Origin: Promethearchaeia archaeon | GTDB lineage: Archaea > Asgardarchaeota > Lokiarchaeia > Sigyniarchaeales > SOKP01 | Direction: 5' to 3' | Assembly (NCBI GenBank): GCA_029856125.1 | Contig: JAHQWJ010000141.1 | Span: 18,053-82,052 of the forward strand | Length of the DNA: 64,000 nt | Part shown: positions 24,195-33,316 of the stretch, piece after piece | Numbering within the stretch: position 1 is the first letter of the stretch | Layout: every line of letters starts with the position of its first letter | The notes under the pieces: generated by a model | Seen by the model: the letters and a program-made list of their open reading frames with translations, nothing else | Database searches by the model: none | What the model was told of the DNA's origin: nothing | Position numbers and translations under genes: made by a program

Positions 24195-24761
24195 ATGATA
24201 AAAAATTTTCCTGGTAAATTAGTATTGGTTGTAGGTAATTCAGGCTCAGGTAAAGATTCAATAATTTCCGGAGTAGTTAAAAGATTTCCATCTAATTTAA
24301 AAGAAATTCATCTCACTCAGCGATATATTACAAGACCATCTTCAGAAACCGAAGATAATATCTCAATAACTCCAGAAATATTTAAAGAAATGTCTCATCA
24401 GAAGAAATTTGCTCTTGAGTGGCACATTTACGATTTGGATTATGGTGTTCCAATAGACATTGACGATTGGTTAAAAAAAGGACACCCCGTAATTGTAAAT
24501 GTTAGCCGAACAATTGTGAAAAAAGCCCGATACATTTACCGAAATATTTTAGTTGTTTTTATCAAAGTGCCTTTTGAAATAACTTTTAAGAGAATAAAGG
24601 AACGAGCCCGAGAAAGCGGAAAACTTTTACAAGAAAGAATCCAAAGAGCAAAGGATAACCAGACTTTTCCCGACGCAGATTTTATCGTTGATAATTCTGG
24701 AGAATTGGAAATTGCTATCGATCAATTCCTAAGTTATTTAATCAGAGTAGTTGAAGCATAG
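24195..24761 (+). CDS. phnN: Ribose-1,5-bisphosphate phosphokinase (PhnN-like)
   Basis: VGNSGSGKDS, RYITRP, FALEW....YGVP, VNVSR, DNSG.L. Confidence 0.82.
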   Translation: MIKNFPGKLVLVVGNSGSGKDSIISGVVKRFPSNLKEIHLTQRYITRPSSETEDNISITPEIFKEMSHQKKFALEWHIYDLDYGVPIDIDDWLKKGHPVIVNVSRTIVKKARYIYRNILVVFIKVPFEITFKRIKERARESGKLLQERIQRAKDNQTFPDADFIVDNSGELEIAIDQFLSYLIRVVEA

Positions 24762-24991: not shown

Positions 24992-26578
24992 ATGAAAATA
25001 AGTATATTAAACGAAGTATTAGGGCCAATTCTGCATGGACCTAGTAGTTCTCATACCGCTGCTTCATATAGTATTGGTCGGTTGACCCATATGTTGTGTG
25101 AGAACGAAATAAAGGAAATTAATATTACATTTGATTCAAAGGGTTCTTTTGATAAGACATATAAATCTCAAAATGGAGATGTTGCGTTCTTAGCAGGGAT
25201 CATTAATTTAGCTGTTGATGATCCTGACTTTCTTAATTCTAAAAATGTAGCCAGTGAAGAAGGAATTAGATATCTCTTCGATTCAAAAGATATTCCTGAA
25301 GCAGATCATCCAAACTATATGTTAATTAATATTCCTGCTAAAAAATTAACAATAGTAGCGAAATCCATCGGAGGAGGTATGATTCTGATAGAAAATGTTA
25401 ATAATTGGAACATTAAAATTAAAGGAAATAATTATAATATCTTAATAGAATTTCATACGAATTCTAAGGAAAAAATACTGAATTTAATTCAATCATTTTC
25501 CAATTCTCCAGAAAAAATACATATACAGGATGATGAGAGGTATTCTTTTATTCAACTAAAGAATCCAAATAGGTTTAAAGATGAATTTGTTAATAAATTA
25601 AAATCTCTTGATTTTATTTCTAATATCTGGACTACTCACCCTATACTTTTTCCGACTCATGGGACTCCGTTGTTTAAAAATAGCTTTGAGATGTTAAATC
25701 TTGCAATTGAAAAAACGTATTCTCTCGGTAAGCTAGGGCTTATGTATGAATCAGATCTATTGAATATGGATGAAAAATCTATTTTAGAAGAAATGGAAAA
25801 AAGGATTTTAGTAATGTTTTCTTCAATTGAAAAGGGTTTGGAAAAGAAAAATTCGCGTATGAAATTATTAAAGCATTCGGCAAGTAATATCCAAAAAAAA
25901 GAACCTCAGCTTTTCAGTTCTGGAATTAATTTAAGAAGCGCTTATAGGGCTATGGCAGCTATGGATACTGCTTCTTCAGGGGGATTGATTTGTGCGGCCC
26001 CTACAGGCGCATCTTGTGGCGTTATTGCTTCTGTTCTTTATACTCTCCATTACGATTTTAATATTAACATGAATAAGATTATTAAATGTGCACTTGCAGC
26101 AGGTGTGATTGGTTTAATAAACGGAATGAATTCAACTTTTGCTGCTGAAATAGCGGGATGTCAAGTTGAGATAGGAATGGCTGGAGCAATGGCAGCGGCA
26201 GCGGTTATCGAAGTCGCTAATGGAGGTCCTGCTGCAGCCACAGAGGCGGCAGCAATTGCATTGCAAAACACAATGGGATCTGTATGCGATCTTGTTGCGG
26301 GATTCTGTGAAATCCCTTGCCATACTAGGAATGCAGTGGCAGCGTCAAATGCATTTATCTGTGCTGATCTTATTATAGGTGGTTATATTAATCCAATAAA
26401 TCTTGATGATTCAATCCAAGCATCATTTGAAAGTGGTAAGATGTTGCCTCCTCAATTACGTTGTACTTCATTAGGAGGAATCGCGATCACAGAATCAGCA
26501 AAAAAATTGGTTCAAGAAGTTAAAACAGATTATAATAAGATTAATAGAGCCAATAAGAAAAATACAAACAGAATTTAA
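24992..26578 (+). CDS. sdaA: Fe-S L-serine ammonia-lyase, fused beta+alpha type, with a captured foreign C-terminus
   Basis: GPSSSHT, SIGGG, AAPTGASCG, AGCQ.E, CDLVAG, PC..RN; the last ~20 aa match the HNH protein tail. Confidence 0.88.
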   Translation: MKISILNEVLGPILHGPSSSHTAASYSIGRLTHMLCENEIKEINITFDSKGSFDKTYKSQNGDVAFLAGIINLAVDDPDFLNSKNVASEEGIRYLFDSKDIPEADHPNYMLINIPAKKLTIVAKSIGGGMILIENVNNWNIKIKGNNYNILIEFHTNSKEKILNLIQSFSNSPEKIHIQDDERYSFIQLKNPNRFKDEFVNKLKSLDFISNIWTTHPILFPTHGTPLFKNSFEMLNLAIEKTYSLGKLGLMYESDLLNMDEKSILEEMEKRILVMFSSIEKGLEKKNSRMKLLKHSASNIQKKEPQLFSSGINLRSAYRAMAAMDTASSGGLICAAPTGASCGVIASVLYTLHYDFNINMNKIIKCALAAGVIGLINGMNSTFAAEIAGCQVEIGMAGAMAAAAVIEVANGGPAAATEAAAIALQNTMGSVCDLVAGFCEIPCHTRNAVAASNAFICADLIIGGYINPINLDDSIQASFESGKMLPPQLRCTSLGGIAITESAKKLVQEVKTDYNKINRANKKNTNRI

Positions 26579-26630
26579 AAAATCAAAAAATGTATAATTA
26601 AATTAAAAGTTAAGGACCATCTTAATGATA
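26510..26630 (+). repeat. Diverged direct repeat of the HNH gene 3' end (partner 28603-28723); remnant of an older HNH copy
   Basis: VQEVKTDYNKINRANKKNTNRI*KIKKCIIKLKVKDHLND versus VLEVKADYNKIKGAIMKNSSRIKKIKKSIIKLNVKDHLNE; DNA aligns without gaps. Confidence 0.92.
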
Positions 26631-26724
26631 AAAAAAATTTGTTGAATAGAATAAGATTTTCGAGATTAAAGAGGTAAATTTTTTTTAATAAGAAAAATTA
26701 GATTAGTTACTTCTATTTTACTAA

Positions 26725-26850
26725 GGCCCGGTTCGTATAGACGAGTCTCGAAATTTTTTCGTGATTCGGTAAAATGGTTAGTATTGGGGACTATACTTAA
26801 GTATTCTTCAATCTCAATCTTTAAGCTGAAGATTAATGAAATTCTCTAAA
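26725..26850 (+). tRNA. tRNA-His 5' half (positions -1 to 32) with an intron at 15/16 (26741-26774) and a 32/33 intron remnant; no contiguous 3' half
   Basis: GGCCCGGTTCGTATAG[34-nt hairpin intron]TGGTTAGTATTGGGGAC is identical to the spliced downstream copy except G30; BHB-like geometry. Confidence 0.8.
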
Positions 26851-26979
26851 TTATAAAACTTATTTTTCTCTTAGTTTTTTAATCAAGTGATTTAAATCCT
26901 CCTCTTCTTAATTTTATTTTTCCCTTTAAATAGATTGTGTTTATATTGTTTTTAAAGGATGATAAAAATGTGATCGGTA

Positions 26980-28728
26980 ATGAACTTTAACTCACCCAAG
27001 TCGGAACCTAATAAAACATTTAAAAAAGTTGATACTAAGAAAGTTGAAAAAACCGAAATCGCTTCAAAACCAGGCCAGAAGCTGAGCGACAAACCAAAGA
27101 ACAAAATAGAACGCCCCAAGATAGATTTACAAAAAGAACCAAGAAATAAAATTCAACGCGAAAAAATTAGCCTACTAACTCCATCAAAAAATAAGATAGA
27201 ACGCCCCAAACTCGATCTAAAAACACCATCCAGAAATAAAATACAACATCCAAAATATGACACAAAAGCTCCACCGAGACATAAAATTGAACCCCGAAGG
27301 ATTAATCTTATGAAAGAACCAAAGTATAAAATACAACATCAAGAATTTAATACTAAAAAGCTTAACACAGATAAAATTCAAGTGAAACCCAGTCATAAAA
27401 TAAGAAGTGAAGAGATTGGTGATAATTTAATAATTAAATCATTCCCTAAAAATACTAGAAATATTATTAGTGAAAATATCTATAAAACTTTTGAGGAAAG
27501 AAAAGCTACTTCAAATTCTAAAATAGTAGATACACTAATTAAAGATTTAGGTGATATTAAATCACAACCGAAGTGGATAAATAGATTACCAAAAGATGAA
27601 TTGAAAGAATTGAGGAATTATATTGTTAATAATAAGATAGATAGTCGATTTGAAGGTAGCTTGTCAAATTATTTTGCTGATCTTACTGATTTAGTAGAAG
27701 ACATAAAAATTTTAAATAATAGAAATCAAGCCGTTAACTTTTCAGAACTCAGTCGTAATTTAATCAAGCAAAATAGAGGATTGAATTTAACAAAAAGAGG
27801 TTTAGAAGAAGCTATTTCTGGAATTTATAACCATTTTAAGAATGTTTTTGATGATTTCAAACTTGAACGTGTAAAAAAAAAGTCTATATTAGGGACGGAA
27901 TCAGAAAAGGAGTCAATACGATGCTTAAGGAAAGAATATAAATTATTAATTGAAATGAATGATGGTAGTTATGGGGGAAAATGTTCAAATCCTAGTTGCA
28001 ACACTGATTTTAAGCGATTACCTGCTTTTGATTTCCATCATGAAGAAAAAAAAATAAAAACTACTACTTGGAATGAGATCATGCATAAAAAATATGATGA
28101 AATAAAAAATACTTTAGAATCTCAAAAAGTAAAACCTATTTGTAAAAATTGTCACTTACCTGAAAATGCTAAAATTTTCAATGATTTTAAAGAGACTATC
28201 TTGAAGAAAGATTTATTTACCTATTCAAGTCACGATATTGATAAATTTTTAAATTTAAAAGTAAATAAGTTTGTTAAAGAAAATAATACAAATTATACGG
28301 CTGCTTCGCTAAAAATTGAGGTAAAGAGATGGATTAAAAAAAGAGCCGTAATTGAACAAGTTTTTAATGGAATGTGTATCTCATGTGCAGAAAAACGACT
28401 TCCATCTTTACAAATGCACCATACTAATCAAGATCTTAAAGTTCATAGATGGGGTGATATTTCTCGTAAATGGAATATTAAAGAATTAATCAATGATTTT
28501 GTAATTGAAGAAGAATGCGTTTGCTTATGTGGAAATTGTCACGCTATGTTAAATACAATAAACTTTGAAAAAAATGTTGGAAAAGTGCTTGGAGAAAAAT
28601 ATGTTCTAGAAGTTAAAGCAGATTATAATAAGATTAAAGGGGCAATCATGAAAAATTCAAGCAGAATTAAAAAAATCAAAAAAAGTATAATTAAATTAAA
28701 TGTTAAGGACCATCTTAATGAAGAATAG
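26980..28728 (+). CDS. Tandem (double) Zn-finger HNH endonuclease-like protein with N-terminal basic 15-aa repeats
   Basis: C....C...FDFHH...ICKNCH and CISC...LQMHH...LCGNCH. Confidence 0.75.
   Translation: MNFNSPKSEPNKTFKKVDTKKVEKTEIASKPGQKLSDKPKNKIERPKIDLQKEPRNKIQREKISLLTPSKNKIERPKLDLKTPSRNKIQHPKYDTKAPPRHKIEPRRINLMKEPKYKIQHQEFNTKKLNTDKIQVKPSHKIRSEEIGDNLIIKSFPKNTRNIISENIYKTFEERKATSNSKIVDTLIKDLGDIKSQPKWINRLPKDELKELRNYIVNNKIDSRFEGSLSNYFADLTDLVEDIKILNNRNQAVNFSELSRNLIKQNRGLNLTKRGLEEAISGIYNHFKNVFDDFKLERVKKKSILGTESEKESIRCLRKEYKLLIEMNDGSYGGKCSNPSCNTDFKRLPAFDFHHEEKKIKTTTWNEIMHKKYDEIKNTLESQKVKPICKNCHLPENAKIFNDFKETILKKDLFTYSSHDIDKFLNLKVNKFVKENNTNYTAASLKIEVKRWIKKRAVIEQVFNGMCISCAEKRLPSLQMHHTNQDLKVHRWGDISRKWNIKELINDFVIEEECVCLCGNCHAMLNTINFEKNVGKVLGEKYVLEVKADYNKIKGAIMKNSSRIKKIKKSIIKLNVKDHLNEE
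27088..27381 (+). repeat. About 6.5 degenerate 45-bp (15-aa) tandem repeats inside the HNH gene
   Basis: DKPKNKIERPKIDLQ / KEPRNKIQREKISLL / TPSKNKIERPKLDLK / TPSRNKIQHPKYDTK / APPRHKIEPRRINLM / KEPKYKIQHQEFNTK. Confidence 0.85.
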
Positions 28729-28798
28729 CATTATTTGTTTTTTTCGAACATTCATAAAATTTTTTTAGTGGGTAGTATTATATCATATATACTTCTAT

Positions 28799-28958
28799 GG
28801 CCCGGTTCGTATAGTGGTTAGTGGTAAGATTTTAATCTATCCAACTAATATTGGGTACAAACTTAGTATTTCTTACTAAATTCTCCTATGTGAATCCCTA
28901 GAAGTGTAAGAATATTCTTATGGCTGGGGAAAGGCGAGTTCAATTCTCGCATCGGGCC
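28799..28958 (+). tRNA. tRNA-His(GUG) with three BHB introns: 22/23 (28822-28848), 32/33 (28859-28888), 45/46 (28902-28931)
   Basis: Spliced cloverleaf: G-1:C73, acceptor GCCCGGT/ATCGGGC, D stem GTAT/GTAT, anticodon GTG at 28890-28892, T arm GCGAG-TTCAATT-CTCGC. Each intron forms a 4-bp helix with two 3-nt bulges. T28856 mismatches C40. Confidence 0.9.
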
Positions 28959-29081
28959 CTCTTATATTTCATAAGTTCAATTTGTATGCCTTAGGGCGCC
29001 TTATTTTACAATATAAACAATAAATTAATATCTTTTAGTGAATTTTACTCTGCAATTAAAAATAGATTATAGGCTTAGACT

Positions 29082-29534
29082 ATGGTTGATTTAGATCCAG
29101 AGAAACTTAGAAACATACCAGGATGGGAAAATGCTCCAATTCATATATGTATGGGTGCTGATTGTCGAGGTCTAACTTTTTGTTGTAAACCAGGGTATTC
29201 TCTTACTTTTGGTTTTAAATGTAGTCGGGATGAAGCTTTAAACGATTTAGAACTAAGTCCAGAAGATTTTATTAAAATTAAAGAAGATTTTTCGAGAGCA
29301 AACGATTGGGACTCCGATCTCGTATGTTTTGGATCAATTTCGTATTGTTGCATGAGGAAAGGAGGATGTTCAAGGAGAGATCCTGCGCTACAAATGAGAT
29401 ACCCAGATAAAACCAGAGAAGAATTTATGAAAATATATTACGAAAAAAAGAAAGAGTTAGCTCAGATAATCTTAGAATTCGTAAACAACAACGGAAATAA
29501 AGAAAAAGTTGAGCCGTATTTAGATTTATTCTAA
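29082..29534 (+). CDS. Methanogenesis marker 9 domain protein (stand-alone)
   Basis: WENAP.HIC.G.D.RGL.FCC, CFGS..YCC, C..RD. Confidence 0.8.
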   Translation: MVDLDPEKLRNIPGWENAPIHICMGADCRGLTFCCKPGYSLTFGFKCSRDEALNDLELSPEDFIKIKEDFSRANDWDSDLVCFGSISYCCMRKGGCSRRDPALQMRYPDKTREEFMKIYYEKKKELAQIILEFVNNNGNKEKVEPYLDLF

Positions 29535-31135: not shown

Positions 31136-33316
31136 TTATTTTGGTCCTGGTTTTGAGAGTCTTTTTCTAAATTCTTGAATCATACCTTCCCATATAACCC
31201 TAGCCGTTTCACTATGCTCTTCCCATTCAATTAGAATTTCTTTATTTTTATCTTTCTCTATAATTTGAAATGTTGCTTTATAAGAGGAACCAGATGATAT
31301 ACTCAATAAATTCGGCTCTAATTCATCACAAATGGTTTCAATTCTTTGCCAATTGAAATGATCTCTAAATCCATTAAAGAAGTTTTCGACAAAAATTTTG
31401 ATATAATTCTTTATATAAATAGTCTTCCATCTTTTAGGGTGGCAAATTATAACATCTTTTATTTTTCTAATTTCTTGGTATGATTCTGTTTCACTTTCCA
31501 TACCCTGTTTTACCGATTCTTGCTCACTATTCTTTCTGATGTATTTTAAAATTATATCTTTAGATTTTACATCTCCTATCTGTTCGGCTATTCTAAGTGC
31601 CTCATTGAATAGTTTTATGGCTTCTTGATAGTTTCCCTGAGATTGCCTTATTGTACCGATATTATGAAGACATAATAAATTCAAACTCTTATCTCCCAAT
31701 TGTTCAGATATCTTTAGTGCTTCTTCATGTCGTTTCAAGGCTTCTGAATAATTTCTTTGATTAGCATAAACTAGTCCACTATTGTTTAATATACTACTTT
31801 TAAAGCGTATATTACCTAATTGATCAGCAATCTTTAGCGCTTCTTCGTAATATTTCAAAGACTCAGAAAAACGCTCCTGTATTCGGTATATTGATCCAAC
31901 ATTATTAAGGTTTATTGCAGTTCCATTTAGGTTCCCATATTGTCTATGAATCTTAGCTGCTTCCTTATAAAGATTTATAGCTCCGGGGTAATCGTTTTTA
32001 CTTACATAAACATCACCCATATTATTATAAATACTAGATATTAGTTTTAAACCTACGTCCCCTCCTAAATCTACAGCAATCTTTTTTGCCTCTTCAAATT
32101 TTTTTAAAGCATCTGTATATTTTCTTTGTTTATTAAAAATTTGTCCAGTATTATTGAGGATGATTGCTTTCCACATAGTATCTCCTGTATCATCAGCAAC
32201 TTGCTTAAGCTTTTTGAGACACCTCAATGCATTATCATACATATCTTTATCGATATAAATTTTATAGGGTATCTGATATTTTATTATGTCATTTACTTCC
32301 GGATAGATGCTATTAAGATAATCTTTAGGTTGTAAGGAAAAATTTTCTGAACTTAAGTCCGGTTTAGAATCTATTAATCCTTCTGCCATTTTCTTTGTAT
32401 TTACATTTAAAAGGTATACATGATCCGCATTTTTCATTTGCCAAATTTCAAAAAGTATCTGAACAACTTTTCTTAAATTCAGGTCCAAATTGTTTAATGA
32501 TTGAGGTGTGTGGTCATCAATCTCAAATATTTGCTCTTTTCCTATTTCAATGTCGTGCGAATAATTTATCCAAATCACATTTTGTATTTGTTTTAAAATT
32601 TTTAAGGTAGGTACAATATCAAAATCGTCGCTTCCAGAATAACCTATAATAGCTAATGACCGTTCTTTTGTGATGTTCTCAAATAAAGGTTGTTTAAATG
32701 ATTCTAGCTGAAATACATTTTCTCCTTCTTTGTTTGACCCGAATGCTTGAATTGTAGCAATTAACGAATCTTTTGTGTCTTTTTGTGTAATTATATTCTT
32801 AGGCGAGCCATGTACTTTATAAACAGTTTTTTTTCCTTGATTTAATTGTTCATATGGGTCAGCAAATACTTCAAAATCCTCTTTGGTTATTACTGGAATA
32901 ATTTCCTCAATAGGAACTCCTGATTGATTTAATGCATATTCAATCAAATGATCAAAATTAGTAGTCATCACAAAATGCCCTTTTTTTATCATTTCAGCTA
33001 AGAAAAAATGCTGGATATTTGGTTTATCGCATATACCGTAGTAATCAATAAGCACAAGTTTTTCATCTAATGAGTCTCGAAAAATCTCAACTAGGGTTTC
33101 AAATCGCACTTCTCCCAATTTTATTAGCTCTAAAATACCTTCACTCTCTGATTTATCACATGCATGGTCAATAATGGCTTCCATCATCGCATAACCTGCG
33201 GGAAGGCAAGAGGGGCTATTAATAGAACATCCAGCACCTACTAGAAAAGTGAACTTCCCATTAGTATTAAAAATATCAGTTATCTTAAGATTTGTTAGCT
33301 CCATACTAATTCTCAA
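31136..33316 (-). CDS. SIR2-like NADase domain + TPR repeats + uncharacterised C-terminal domain
   Basis: FLVGAGCS, TTNFD, KVHGS, IGYSGSD; six or more TPRs of the LNN.G..Y......EAL...EEAL.I form. Confidence 0.88.
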   Translation of the reverse strand: MRISMELTNLKITDIFNTNGKFTFLVGAGCSINSPSCLPAGYAMMEAIIDHACDKSESEGILELIKLGEVRFETLVEIFRDSLDEKLVLIDYYGICDKPNIQHFFLAEMIKKGHFVMTTNFDHLIEYALNQSGVPIEEIIPVITKEDFEVFADPYEQLNQGKKTVYKVHGSPKNIITQKDTKDSLIATIQAFGSNKEGENVFQLESFKQPLFENITKERSLAIIGYSGSDDFDIVPTLKILKQIQNVIWINYSHDIEIGKEQIFEIDDHTPQSLNNLDLNLRKVVQILFEIWQMKNADHVYLLNVNTKKMAEGLIDSKPDLSSENFSLQPKDYLNSIYPEVNDIIKYQIPYKIYIDKDMYDNALRCLKKLKQVADDTGDTMWKAIILNNTGQIFNKQRKYTDALKKFEEAKKIAVDLGGDVGLKLISSIYNNMGDVYVSKNDYPGAINLYKEAAKIHRQYGNLNGTAINLNNVGSIYRIQERFSESLKYYEEALKIADQLGNIRFKSSILNNSGLVYANQRNYSEALKRHEEALKISEQLGDKSLNLLCLHNIGTIRQSQGNYQEAIKLFNEALRIAEQIGDVKSKDIILKYIRKNSEQESVKQGMESETESYQEIRKIKDVIICHPKRWKTIYIKNYIKIFVENFFNGFRDHFNWQRIETICDELEPNLLSISSGSSYKATFQIIEKDKNKEILIEWEEHSETARVIWEGMIQEFRKRLSKPGPK

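What the first reader, a model, noticed from the sequence alone, without database searches (positions are those of the whole stretch)
26510..28958. HNH nuclease + intron-variant tRNA-His cassette, iterated in tandem: candidate tRNA-homing or intron-swapping element
Seen: the unit [double-HNH gene]-[short spacer containing ACTTCTAT]-[tRNA-His] occurs twice. The older unit is reduced to the HNH 3' tail (26510-26630) plus a tRNA 5' half; the newer unit is intact. The two tRNA copies have the same exon sequence except position 30, but different D-loop introns (15/16 versus 22/23) and related 32/33 introns. No integrase or transposase is nearby. Established: free-standing homing endonucleases next to tRNA genes (phage T4 SegB) and collaborative homing with introns exist in phages, and the mechanism that moves non-canonical archaeal tRNA introns is unresolved. 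Inference: the HNH gene travels with its own tRNA-His allele, whose intron pattern shields it from cleavage while alleles with other intron patterns are cut and displaced.
Basis: partly seen in the sequence, partly recalled or inferred. Interest (0 to 1): 0.9.

Follow-up and report, generated by a model that had tools for sequence, protein, structure and literature searches.

The report
Nuclease cassette replacing archaeal tRNA-His gene
A selfish DNA-cutting gene travels between Asgard archaea with its own intron-filled histidine tRNA gene and replaces the resident copy, which offers a testable route for how tiny tRNA introns spread.

Summary
Real, but details need correcting. A roughly 2.2-kb cassette (leader, 582-aa double-HNH gene, spacer, complete tRNA-His with three BHB introns at 22/23, 32/33 and 45/46) entered the resident tRNA-His gene at T33 and left its 5' half as a scar. 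The scar has no 32/33 intron, and the position-30 difference is most likely an assembly error.

Contigs from four sediment runs hold the pre-insertion allele, which has only the 15/16 intron (in X1 about 20x depth against about 5x). All 15 close homologues I could place sit between phnN (or other DNA) and tRNA-His; 79 of 100 family loci are empty. Synonymous divergence of the HNH gene is often 4-8x below that of its flanks, and three other loci have scars of different lengths. Distant clades dock on tRNA-Asn, -Gln, -Arg and -Val.

Best reading: a free-standing homing endonuclease (0.75). D-loop shielding is not supported. The candidate shield is the 45/46 intron (14 of 15 HNH alleles against 39 of 79 empty; crosses genera), but the phylogenetic test is not significant and cutting is untested. 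The scan noted similar tRNA-His cassettes in bacteria; a similar scar is published for Caldiarchaeum.

The parts
24195..24761 (+). phnN (ribose 1,5-bisphosphokinase; guanylate-kinase fold): conserved left flank, probably the left homology arm in scar-free events
   Evidence: TIGR02322 above cut-off; left neighbour of tRNA-His in 79 empty loci; discordant with the other flanks in P0004/P0008 (74% nt versus 94-97% for the right flank)
24992..26578 (+). Fused L-serine dehydratase gene, patchy at this site; its 3' end runs into the old HNH tail
   Evidence: Pfam SDH_alpha E 6e-50; found at this site only in G000, G087 and L175/L176; follows a motif shared with the cassette leader
26501..26629 (+). 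Relic 3' tail (~43 codons, one stop) of an earlier HNH gene
   Evidence: 143-nt repeat, 84%; 67% aa to HNH residues 539-581
26630..26724 (+). Spacer 1: upstream (likely promoter) region of the resident tRNA-His allele
   Evidence: present on pre-insertion contigs in X1, X2 and X4; same type in L175
26725..26792 (+). Orphan 5' half of the resident tRNA-His (G-1 to T33) with a 34-nt intron at 15/16 (26741-26774): the insertion scar
   Evidence: the pre-insertion allele continues after 26792 into the anticodon, without 32/33 or 45/46 introns
26793..26979 (+). Left end and leader of the incoming cassette (not an intron)
   Evidence: 75% over 121 nt to the post-scar DNA of L184, E 1e-16; its 3' part is shared with L185, L040 and L175
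26980..28728 (+). 582-aa double-HNH gene: disordered repeat N-terminus (1-138), helical middle domain (~140-300), two zinc-HNH modules
   Evidence: dN/dS 0.15-0.43
27982..28167 (+). HNH module 1 (C335, C340, H353-H354, C388-x-N-C391-H392)
   Evidence: C335, C340, H354, C388, C391 and H392 invariant in 16 homologues; PHROG HNH E 6e-6
28375..28554 (+). HNH module 2 (C466, C469, H480-H481, C517-G-N-C520-H521)
   Evidence: invariant in 16 homologues; PHROG HNH E 2.5e-7
28729..28798 (+). Spacer 2: cassette-borne upstream (likely promoter) region of the new tRNA
   Evidence: shared with L039, L040, L185 and G087
28799..28959 (+). Complete tRNA-His(GUG), the only complete one found in the genome; exons 28799-28821, 28849-28858, 28889-28901, 28932-28959; T at 28856 should most likely read G
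   Evidence: reads
28822..28848 (+). 27-nt BHB intron at 22/23
   Evidence: BHB central helix 4/4
28859..28888 (+). 30-nt BHB intron at 32/33
   Evidence: BHB central helix 4/4 with G30
28902..28931 (+).
   Evidence: BHB 4/4; a variable-loop intron is in 14 of 15 HNH-linked alleles versus 39 of 79 empty ones; absent from the pre-insertion allele
29082..29534 (+). Methanogenesis-marker-9-like gene (M9): conserved right flank
   Evidence: TIGR03277 E 3e-22, below cut-off; found in 118 of 135 family genomes

Best explanation
A free-standing homing endonuclease cassette that targets the single essential tRNA-His gene of a Lokiarchaeia-like family.

Shown: the cassette (leader, double-HNH gene, spacer, complete tRNA-His) is optional at one site, moves between species and genera, and replaced the resident tRNA allele from T33 to beyond position 46.

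Inferred: the two HNH modules together cut a cassette-less allele 3' of position 33, probably around the 45/46 junction. The break is repaired from a donor using the tRNA 3' end or M9 as the right homology arm, which copies the donor's tRNA, introns and HNH gene. The left end joins by recombination in phnN (no scar, phnN may be co-converted) or by end-joining to the resected recipient (scars ending at about 5, 24, 26 and 33). The 45/46 intron probably interrupts the target and protects the donor (collaborative homing; about 0.5 if homing is right).

Loss of the HNH gene would leave resistant alleles (G087) and relics (the tail after SDH). An allele without 45/46 can be re-invaded, as happened here.
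For: Pre-insertion allele with only the 15/16 intron in runs X1-X4 (3 studies), same junction at T33, and the 45/46 intron absent, so it cannot derive from the HNH allele by simple deletion. All 15 placed close homologues lie directly upstream of tRNA-His. Only 5 of 100 family loci carry it and 79 are empty; 9 changes of state for 12 carriers on the host tree. dS of HNH versus flanks: G000-G085 (another genus) 0.36 versus 2.3-2.8; P0005 0.29 versus 1.5-1.6; P0014 0.28 versus 1.5; the reverse for P0008, 0.47 versus 0.10 for M9. dN/dS 0.15-0.43. Four scars with different end points. phnN discordant in two carriers. Family-wide tRNA docking: 10 of 25 distant homologues have a tRNA right after the stop, versus 8 of 1930 ORFs in G000, and clades track Asn and Gln tRNAs. 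The 45/46 intron is in 14 of 15 HNH alleles; 9 of 20 such introns in genus g12 are >=85% identical to one in g1, versus 0 of 55 at other positions.
Against: No nuclease activity, target or cut site was tested. The window protein itself has no Pfam HNH hit, although 4 of 16 homologues do. The link between HNH and 45/46 is not significant on independent pairs (8 pairs; same direction 2.4, opposite 0; median p 0.5) and may be simple linkage. G036 carries a 55-61% identical HNH with no 45/46 intron and an integrase-like relic upstream. The G085 scar carries a 22/23 intron, and all four g12 alleles with one also have a variable-loop intron, so that recipient may not have lacked it. About half of the distant homologues have no tRNA beside them. 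How donor and recipient DNA meet is unknown.
Confidence: 0.75

Rival explanations
1. Integrase-mediated integration of a larger element whose attP holds the 5' part of tRNA-His (pNOB8-type, the Caldiarchaeum model), later trimmed; the HNH gene is only cargo.
For: Same architecture published for Caldiarchaeum tRNA-Thr (PMC3293823). This tRNA-His is an integration site: G105 keeps only a 3' half next to M9. G036 has a tyrosine-integrase-like relic upstream of its HNH (judged by motif only).
Against: Junctions vary (about 5, 24, 26, 33, or no scar), unlike a fixed att crossover. The recipient's 34-46 region is replaced, not kept. Most cassettes hold the HNH gene with little else. HNH clades track particular tRNAs.
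Confidence: 0.1
2. Homing is right, but immunity comes from something other than the 45/46 intron (upstream junction, exon polymorphisms, or tight expression control as proposed for SegB). The introns are passive co-converted markers. This is a sub-case of the best explanation, not an alternative to it.
For: Independent-pair test not significant. G036 is an exception. T4 carries SegB sites in its own tRNA genes (PMC2330249). The tRNA-Asn clade gave no discriminating intron (T-arm introns in 12 of 13 HNH versus 65 of 73 empty loci).
Against: All other introns and exon types vary among HNH alleles while a variable-loop intron persists in 10 of 11 distinct allele types. The one directly seen recipient lacks it. 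Only this intron shows near-identical copies across genera.
Confidence: 0.35
3. The protein is a defence, toxin or RNA-processing nuclease that collects at a tRNA insertion hot spot without targeting it.
For: Twelve other loci have unrelated insertions between phnN and tRNA-His. Many family members, some over 900 aa, are not next to tRNAs. The gene is under purifying selection.
Against: It does not explain repeated replacement of the tRNA allele, the variable scars, transfer across genera into the same site, or clade-specific tRNA partners. None of the other insertions analysed leaves a 5' scar.
Confidence: 0.1
4. The upstream 5' half is functional and is joined to the downstream 3' half across a 2.1-kb HNH-encoding BHB intron, or by trans-splicing.
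For: The central 4-bp helix can form between position 27-30 of copy 1 and the end of copy 2's 32/33 intron. It would have bypassed a T30 mismatch.
Against: The intron-side helix has 1 pair. T30 is most likely an error, so copy 2 is complete by itself. Scars in other genomes end at 5, 24 and 26 or are absent, which cannot be spliced this way.
Confidence: 0.03
5. The tandem layout is an assembly merger of two strains.
For: Both alleles coexist in the same samples, and no listed piece spans the whole stretch.
Against: A 1562-nt contig in X3 crosses the junction by more than 100 nt on each side. L002 has the same layout. Three analogous scar loci exist in other assemblies.
Confidence: 0.02

Closest known systems
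Phage T4 SegB (free-standing homing endonuclease, intronless homing; PMC2330249, PMC2988022)
   Same: Optional free-standing nuclease gene beside tRNA genes; spreads itself and flanking tRNA genes at the expense of the recipient's tRNA region.
   Different: SegB is GIY-YIG, phage-borne, recognises the generic T-loop motif, and sits in a non-essential cluster. This is a double-HNH protein on an archaeal chromosome, tied to one essential tRNA, and it leaves 5' scars. Activity is untested.
F-CphI with the psbA group I intron of cyanophage S-PM2 (collaborative homing; PMC6083498)
   Same: Free-standing beta-beta-alpha-metal nuclease next to an intron-containing allele; there the intron blocks self-cleavage and gains mobility, as proposed here for 45/46.
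   Different: There the intron is a self-splicing group I intron in a phage protein gene and the enzyme has an Endo VII motif. Here it is a 30-nt protein-spliced BHB intron in a tRNA, and shielding is only inferred.
Caldiarchaeum subterraneum tRNA-Thr(GGU) insertion (Sugahara et al. 2012, PMC3293823)
   Same: 5' tRNA fragment, ~1.8-kb insertion with one ORF, then a complete tRNA with an extra intron; both alleles in one natural population.
   Different: That ORF (813 bp) was read as a recombinase of a pNOB8-like element and has paralogues across the genome. Here the ORF is a single-copy double HNH, the junction varies between events, and transfer across genera is shown.
Archaeal rRNA BHB introns encoding LAGLIDADG homing endonucleases (from my own knowledge)
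   Same: Homing nuclease associated with BHB introns in stable-RNA genes of archaea.
   Different: Those nucleases are encoded inside the intron. This one is outside, and the introns are too short to code.
HNH-tRNA-His replacement cassettes in CPR and other bacteria
   Same: HNH gene plus its own tRNA-His placed behind an orphan 5' half.
   Different: Those are small (~600-nt) bacterial cassettes, and no intron exchange is mentioned in the notes. I did not test homology to them.

Membership tests
HNH (beta-beta-alpha-metal) nucleases | Profile match to HNH families | tested here: met
   Both modules hit PHROG HNH families (E 6e-6, 2.5e-7). Pfam PF01844 in 4 of 16 homologues, best E 9.5e-6, but not in the window protein.
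HNH (beta-beta-alpha-metal) nucleases | Conserved catalytic and metal-binding His residues and zinc-binding Cys pairs | tested here: met
   H354, H392, H480, H481, H521 and eight Cys invariant in 16 homologues; the HH and C-x-N-C-H motifs align between the two modules.
HNH (beta-beta-alpha-metal) nucleases | Structural match to a solved beta-beta-alpha-metal fold | tested here: inconclusive
   The model has strand-strand-helix elements at both modules. ESM Atlas rows include HNH-labelled clusters at TM 0.43-0.50 and an unnamed viral cluster at TM 0.73 over residues 321-530.
HNH (beta-beta-alpha-metal) nucleases | Metal-dependent DNA cleavage | not testable with these tools
   Needs purified protein.
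Free-standing homing endonucleases (Seg/Mob type) | Optional gene between two conserved genes; empty alleles in relatives | tested here: met
   5 of 100 family loci occupied, 79 empty; empty allele in the same samples.
Free-standing homing endonucleases (Seg/Mob type) | Horizontal spread into the same site with co-conversion of flanks | tested here: met
   dS of HNH 4-8x below the flanks in several pairs; tRNA allele replaced; phnN discordant in P0004/P0008.
Free-standing homing endonucleases (Seg/Mob type) | Site-specific cleavage of the empty allele and biased inheritance in crosses | not testable with these tools
   Needs a cleavage assay and a genetic system.
Collaborative homing (F-CphI type) | An ORF-less intron accompanies the nuclease and is absent from recipients | tested here: inconclusive
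   Variable-loop intron in 14 of 15 HNH alleles versus 39 of 79 empty; absent from the one recipient seen; independent pairs not significant.
Collaborative homing (F-CphI type) | The intron blocks cleavage | not testable with these tools
   Needs an in vitro assay.
Integrase-type tRNA-integrating elements (pNOB8/SSV) | Integrase gene within the element | tested here: not met
   The cassette's one ORF is HNH; none of the neighbours scanned is an integrase. G036 is a possible exception.
Integrase-type tRNA-integrating elements (pNOB8/SSV) | Fixed att core repeated at both ends | tested here: not met
   Left junctions at about 5, 24, 26, 33 or none.
Archaeal BHB tRNA introns | Bulge-helix-bulge at both splice sites; spliced product folds as a tRNA | tested here: met
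   4/4 central helices for all three introns with G30; ARAGORN calls the spliced product tRNA-His(GUG).
Split or trans-spliced tRNA; protein-coding tRNA intron | Complementary leaders or a full BHB joining the separated halves | tested here: not met
   Only 1 intron-side pair for the 2097-nt candidate; copy 2 is complete alone.

The most novel reading that the evidence does not exclude
Lokiarchaeia carry a family of chromosomal double-HNH homing endonucleases, each clade aimed at one tRNA gene (His, Asn, Gln, Arg, Val). Short BHB introns that interrupt a target confer immunity and are driven through populations and across genera by these enzymes. That would be collaborative homing of protein-spliced micro-introns, and a cause of the extreme tRNA intron load of Asgard archaea.
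Probability: 0.3. Interest if true: 0.88.

Novelty: new variant of a known kind. Interest (0 to 1): 0.72.

Why it matters
A 2026 census of Asgard tRNA introns found repeated gains but no general route of arrival, and its main text never mentions homing, HNH or gene conversion (10.64898/2026.10.13.758758).

Here one event can be read with both alleles in hand: a one-intron tRNA-His was replaced by a three-intron allele that arrived with a nuclease gene. That names an enzyme, a substrate and a 30-nt candidate shield for a simple cleavage assay.

It would explain the spread and exchange of introns among alleles at the same position, and a selective reason to keep them. It would not explain how a new intron first arises. 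It also shows how orphan tRNA halves form, and the enzyme may be a single-chain double-HNH cutter.

Tried and rejected
- ARAGORN and Rfam missed both tRNA copies in the window because of the multiple introns, so I used spliced alignment instead.
- Fold and sequence searches of the PDB gave no clear match; the single-module model was poor (pLDDT 56). The middle domain gave only weak winged-helix-like rows (Z below 5) and no Atlas hit.
- No relative was found in viral contigs with this query. No RNA holder was listed.
- The tRNA-Asn clade was tried as an independent shield test and is uninformative, because T-arm introns are near universal there.
- The idea that the cassette's left end is a phnN 3' fragment scored no better than shuffles; its origin is unknown.
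- Rejected as markers or shields: ACTTCTAT, the position-30 difference, and the D-loop introns.
- A second anticodon-arm match at window ~50360 lies inside a protein-coding stretch and looks like chance.
- Complex prediction was not used, as no protein-protein binding is claimed.


Full report
**Setting.** The window is contig C142 of a 3.69-Mb genome, 33% GC. One homologue of the gene is named from a Candidatus Lokiarchaeota archaeon, so I infer a Lokiarchaeia-like host; the genome itself is unnamed. The local order is DtxR-like gene, phnN, serine dehydratase (SDH), HNH tail, tRNA-His 5' half, HNH gene, complete tRNA-His, methanogenesis-marker-9-like gene (M9), DHH gene.

**Observation.** The repeat of the HNH 3' end (143 nt, 84%), the 5' half with a 15/16 intron, the 582-aa ORF and the full tRNA are all there. 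The full copy has three introns (22/23, 32/33, 45/46), each with a 4/4 BHB helix when position 30 is G, and its spliced product is tRNA-His(GUG). It is the only complete His gene I found in the genome. The DNA after T33 of the orphan is not an intron: it matches the left end of another insertion.

**The event, with both alleles in hand.** In four runs from three studies, contigs follow the window up to 26792 and then continue into the anticodon. In X1 and X4 they run on through the variable loop with no 32/33 or 45/46 intron (tables 5c, 7, 8). In X1 this allele has depth about 20, against 5-8 over the HNH gene. It cannot come from the window's allele by simple deletion, because that would keep the 45/46 intron. 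So the cassette went in at T33 and replaced the resident gene to beyond position 46. A contig of X3 crosses the junction, which argues against a chimera.

**The protein.** Residues 1-138 are low-confidence repeats of variable length among homologues, 140-300 are helical, and two similar modules follow, each with CxxC-like, HH and C-x-N-C-H motifs. Both modules match phage HNH families. No solved structure matched. dN/dS is 0.15-0.43.

**Distribution.** Every close homologue I could place (15 loci, 47-100% identity) lies just upstream of tRNA-His and, where the contig reaches it, M9. Among 100 family loci, 5 carry it, 79 are empty and the rest have other insertions or are cut off. Synonymous divergence shows transfer: against G085, in another genus, dS is 0.36 for HNH and 2.3-2.8 for the flanks; for P0005 0.29 versus 1.5-1.6; for P0008 the reverse, 0.47 versus 0.10 for M9.

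**Scars and relics.** Three more scars end at about position 5 (L175), 24 (L184) and 26 (L037), and five loci have none. In two carriers phnN is only 74% identical to G000 while M9 is 94-97%, as expected if phnN was co-converted. G087, the nearest genome, has SDH, a tail that switches from tail-1 to tail-2 type, spacer 2 and the three-intron tRNA, but no HNH gene. That is either a crossover in the tail or a later deletion between the repeats; in both cases the introns stayed and the nuclease did not. SDH follows a short motif shared with the cassette leader and ends in the HNH tail, so it probably replaced the inside of an older cassette (inference).

**Which intron matters.** HNH-bearing alleles have 22/23, 15/16 or no D-loop intron, and 32/33 or T-arm introns come and go. 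A variable-loop (45/46) intron is present in 14 of 15, against 39 of 79 empty alleles. It is absent from the recipient seen here, and from G089, the empty relative that matches the L184 scar. Nine of 20 such introns in genus g12 are at least 85% identical to one in genus g1; none of 55 introns at other positions is. The nearest HNH-less relatives of G085 lack it. Against this: 8 independent pairs give no significance, linkage alone could produce the pattern, G036 is an exception, and the tRNA-Asn test was blind. I put the shield at about even odds if homing is right.

**Wider family.** Relatives at 27-41% identity occur in 56 of 135 family genomes (which includes the His clade). Of 25 examined, 10 have a tRNA directly after the stop by a fixed detector, against 8 of 1930 ORFs in G000, and three more are seen by eye. 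The partners are Asn(GUU), Gln(CUG), Gln(UUG), Arg(UCG), Arg(CCU) and Val(CAC). The Gln(CUG) members form a clade and the Asn members two groups. These rows are related, so they amount to about five independent cases. L030 shows a mirror scar, with a full tRNA-Val upstream and a 3' fragment downstream. An HNH gene flanks tRNA-Asn at 13 of 86 loci.

**Mechanism.** Shown: an optional, horizontally moving cassette that replaces the tRNA allele and leaves variable 5' scars. Inferred: a double-strand cut by two HNH modules 3' of position 33; homologous repair on the right; recombination in phnN or end-joining on the left; immunity through the 45/46 intron; and a cycle of invasion, decay and re-invasion. 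Unknown: activity, cut site, and how DNA moves between cells (no viral relative found).

**Comparison.** It works like T4 SegB (PMC2330249) and, if the shield holds, like F-CphI with the psbA intron (PMC6083498). It meets the testable criteria of a free-standing homing endonuclease, but cleavage is untested. The architecture has a published precedent in Caldiarchaeum, read there as integrase-driven (PMC3293823). This scan has noted similar tRNA-His cassettes in bacteria (unchecked). I found no paper describing this Asgard family or tying a homing nuclease to BHB tRNA introns (the library is incomplete). The recent census leaves the arrival route open.

**Verdict.** New variant of a known kind; interest 0.72.

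Noticed in passing
L019, L021, L027, L028, L031, L034 (tRNA-Asn); L013, L014, L015, L020 (tRNA-Gln); L010, L029 (tRNA-Arg): Distant double-HNH relatives dock on other tRNA genes, mostly tail-to-tail within a few tens of bases of the stop codon; G063 has two HNH units in tandem next to tRNA-Asn.
   Followed up: partly
L030:1213-1316 and ~2263-2320 (G038): Mirror architecture: complete tRNA-Val(CAC) upstream of the HNH gene, and a tRNA 3' fragment with a T-loop intron right after it.
   Followed up: partly
L047/L076 (G105) and L084 (G114): tRNA-His is also an insertion site for other DNA: G105 keeps only a 3' half beside M9 with a large insertion upstream, and G114 has ~2 kb between the tRNA and M9.
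   Followed up: no
L036:1290-2231 (G036 type): Tyrosine-integrase-like ORF (judged by motif) and small genes between phnN and the one HNH whose tRNA lacks a variable-loop intron.
   Followed up: no
window 24992-26578; L075, L175: A fused serine dehydratase gene sits inside the relic of an older HNH cassette, and its stop depends on the HNH tail. Runs X1, X2 and X4 have an extra A at 26576 that shifts its last codons.
   Followed up: partly
tRNA-His loci L056-L174: 29 different intron-position patterns at this one tRNA across about 100 loci of one family, on nearly constant exons; the mature tRNA has G at both 15 and 48.
   Followed up: partly
run X3, loose end at window 28737: An HNH 3' region (28310-28737) followed by a spacer-1-like sequence; the tRNA behind it is not visible and could test the shield idea.
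   Followed up: no
L011, L012, L017, L022, L032: Long proteins (open frames of about 900-1900 aa) with the same double-HNH end and no tRNA downstream; possibly domesticated or with another target.
   Followed up: no
window 31136-33316 (-): 726-aa protein with a weak SIR2-like N-terminus and TPR repeats; could be defence-related.
   Followed up: no
L100, L110 (G013, G010): tRNA-His is inverted relative to phnN and M9 in these two genomes of genus g5.
   Followed up: no
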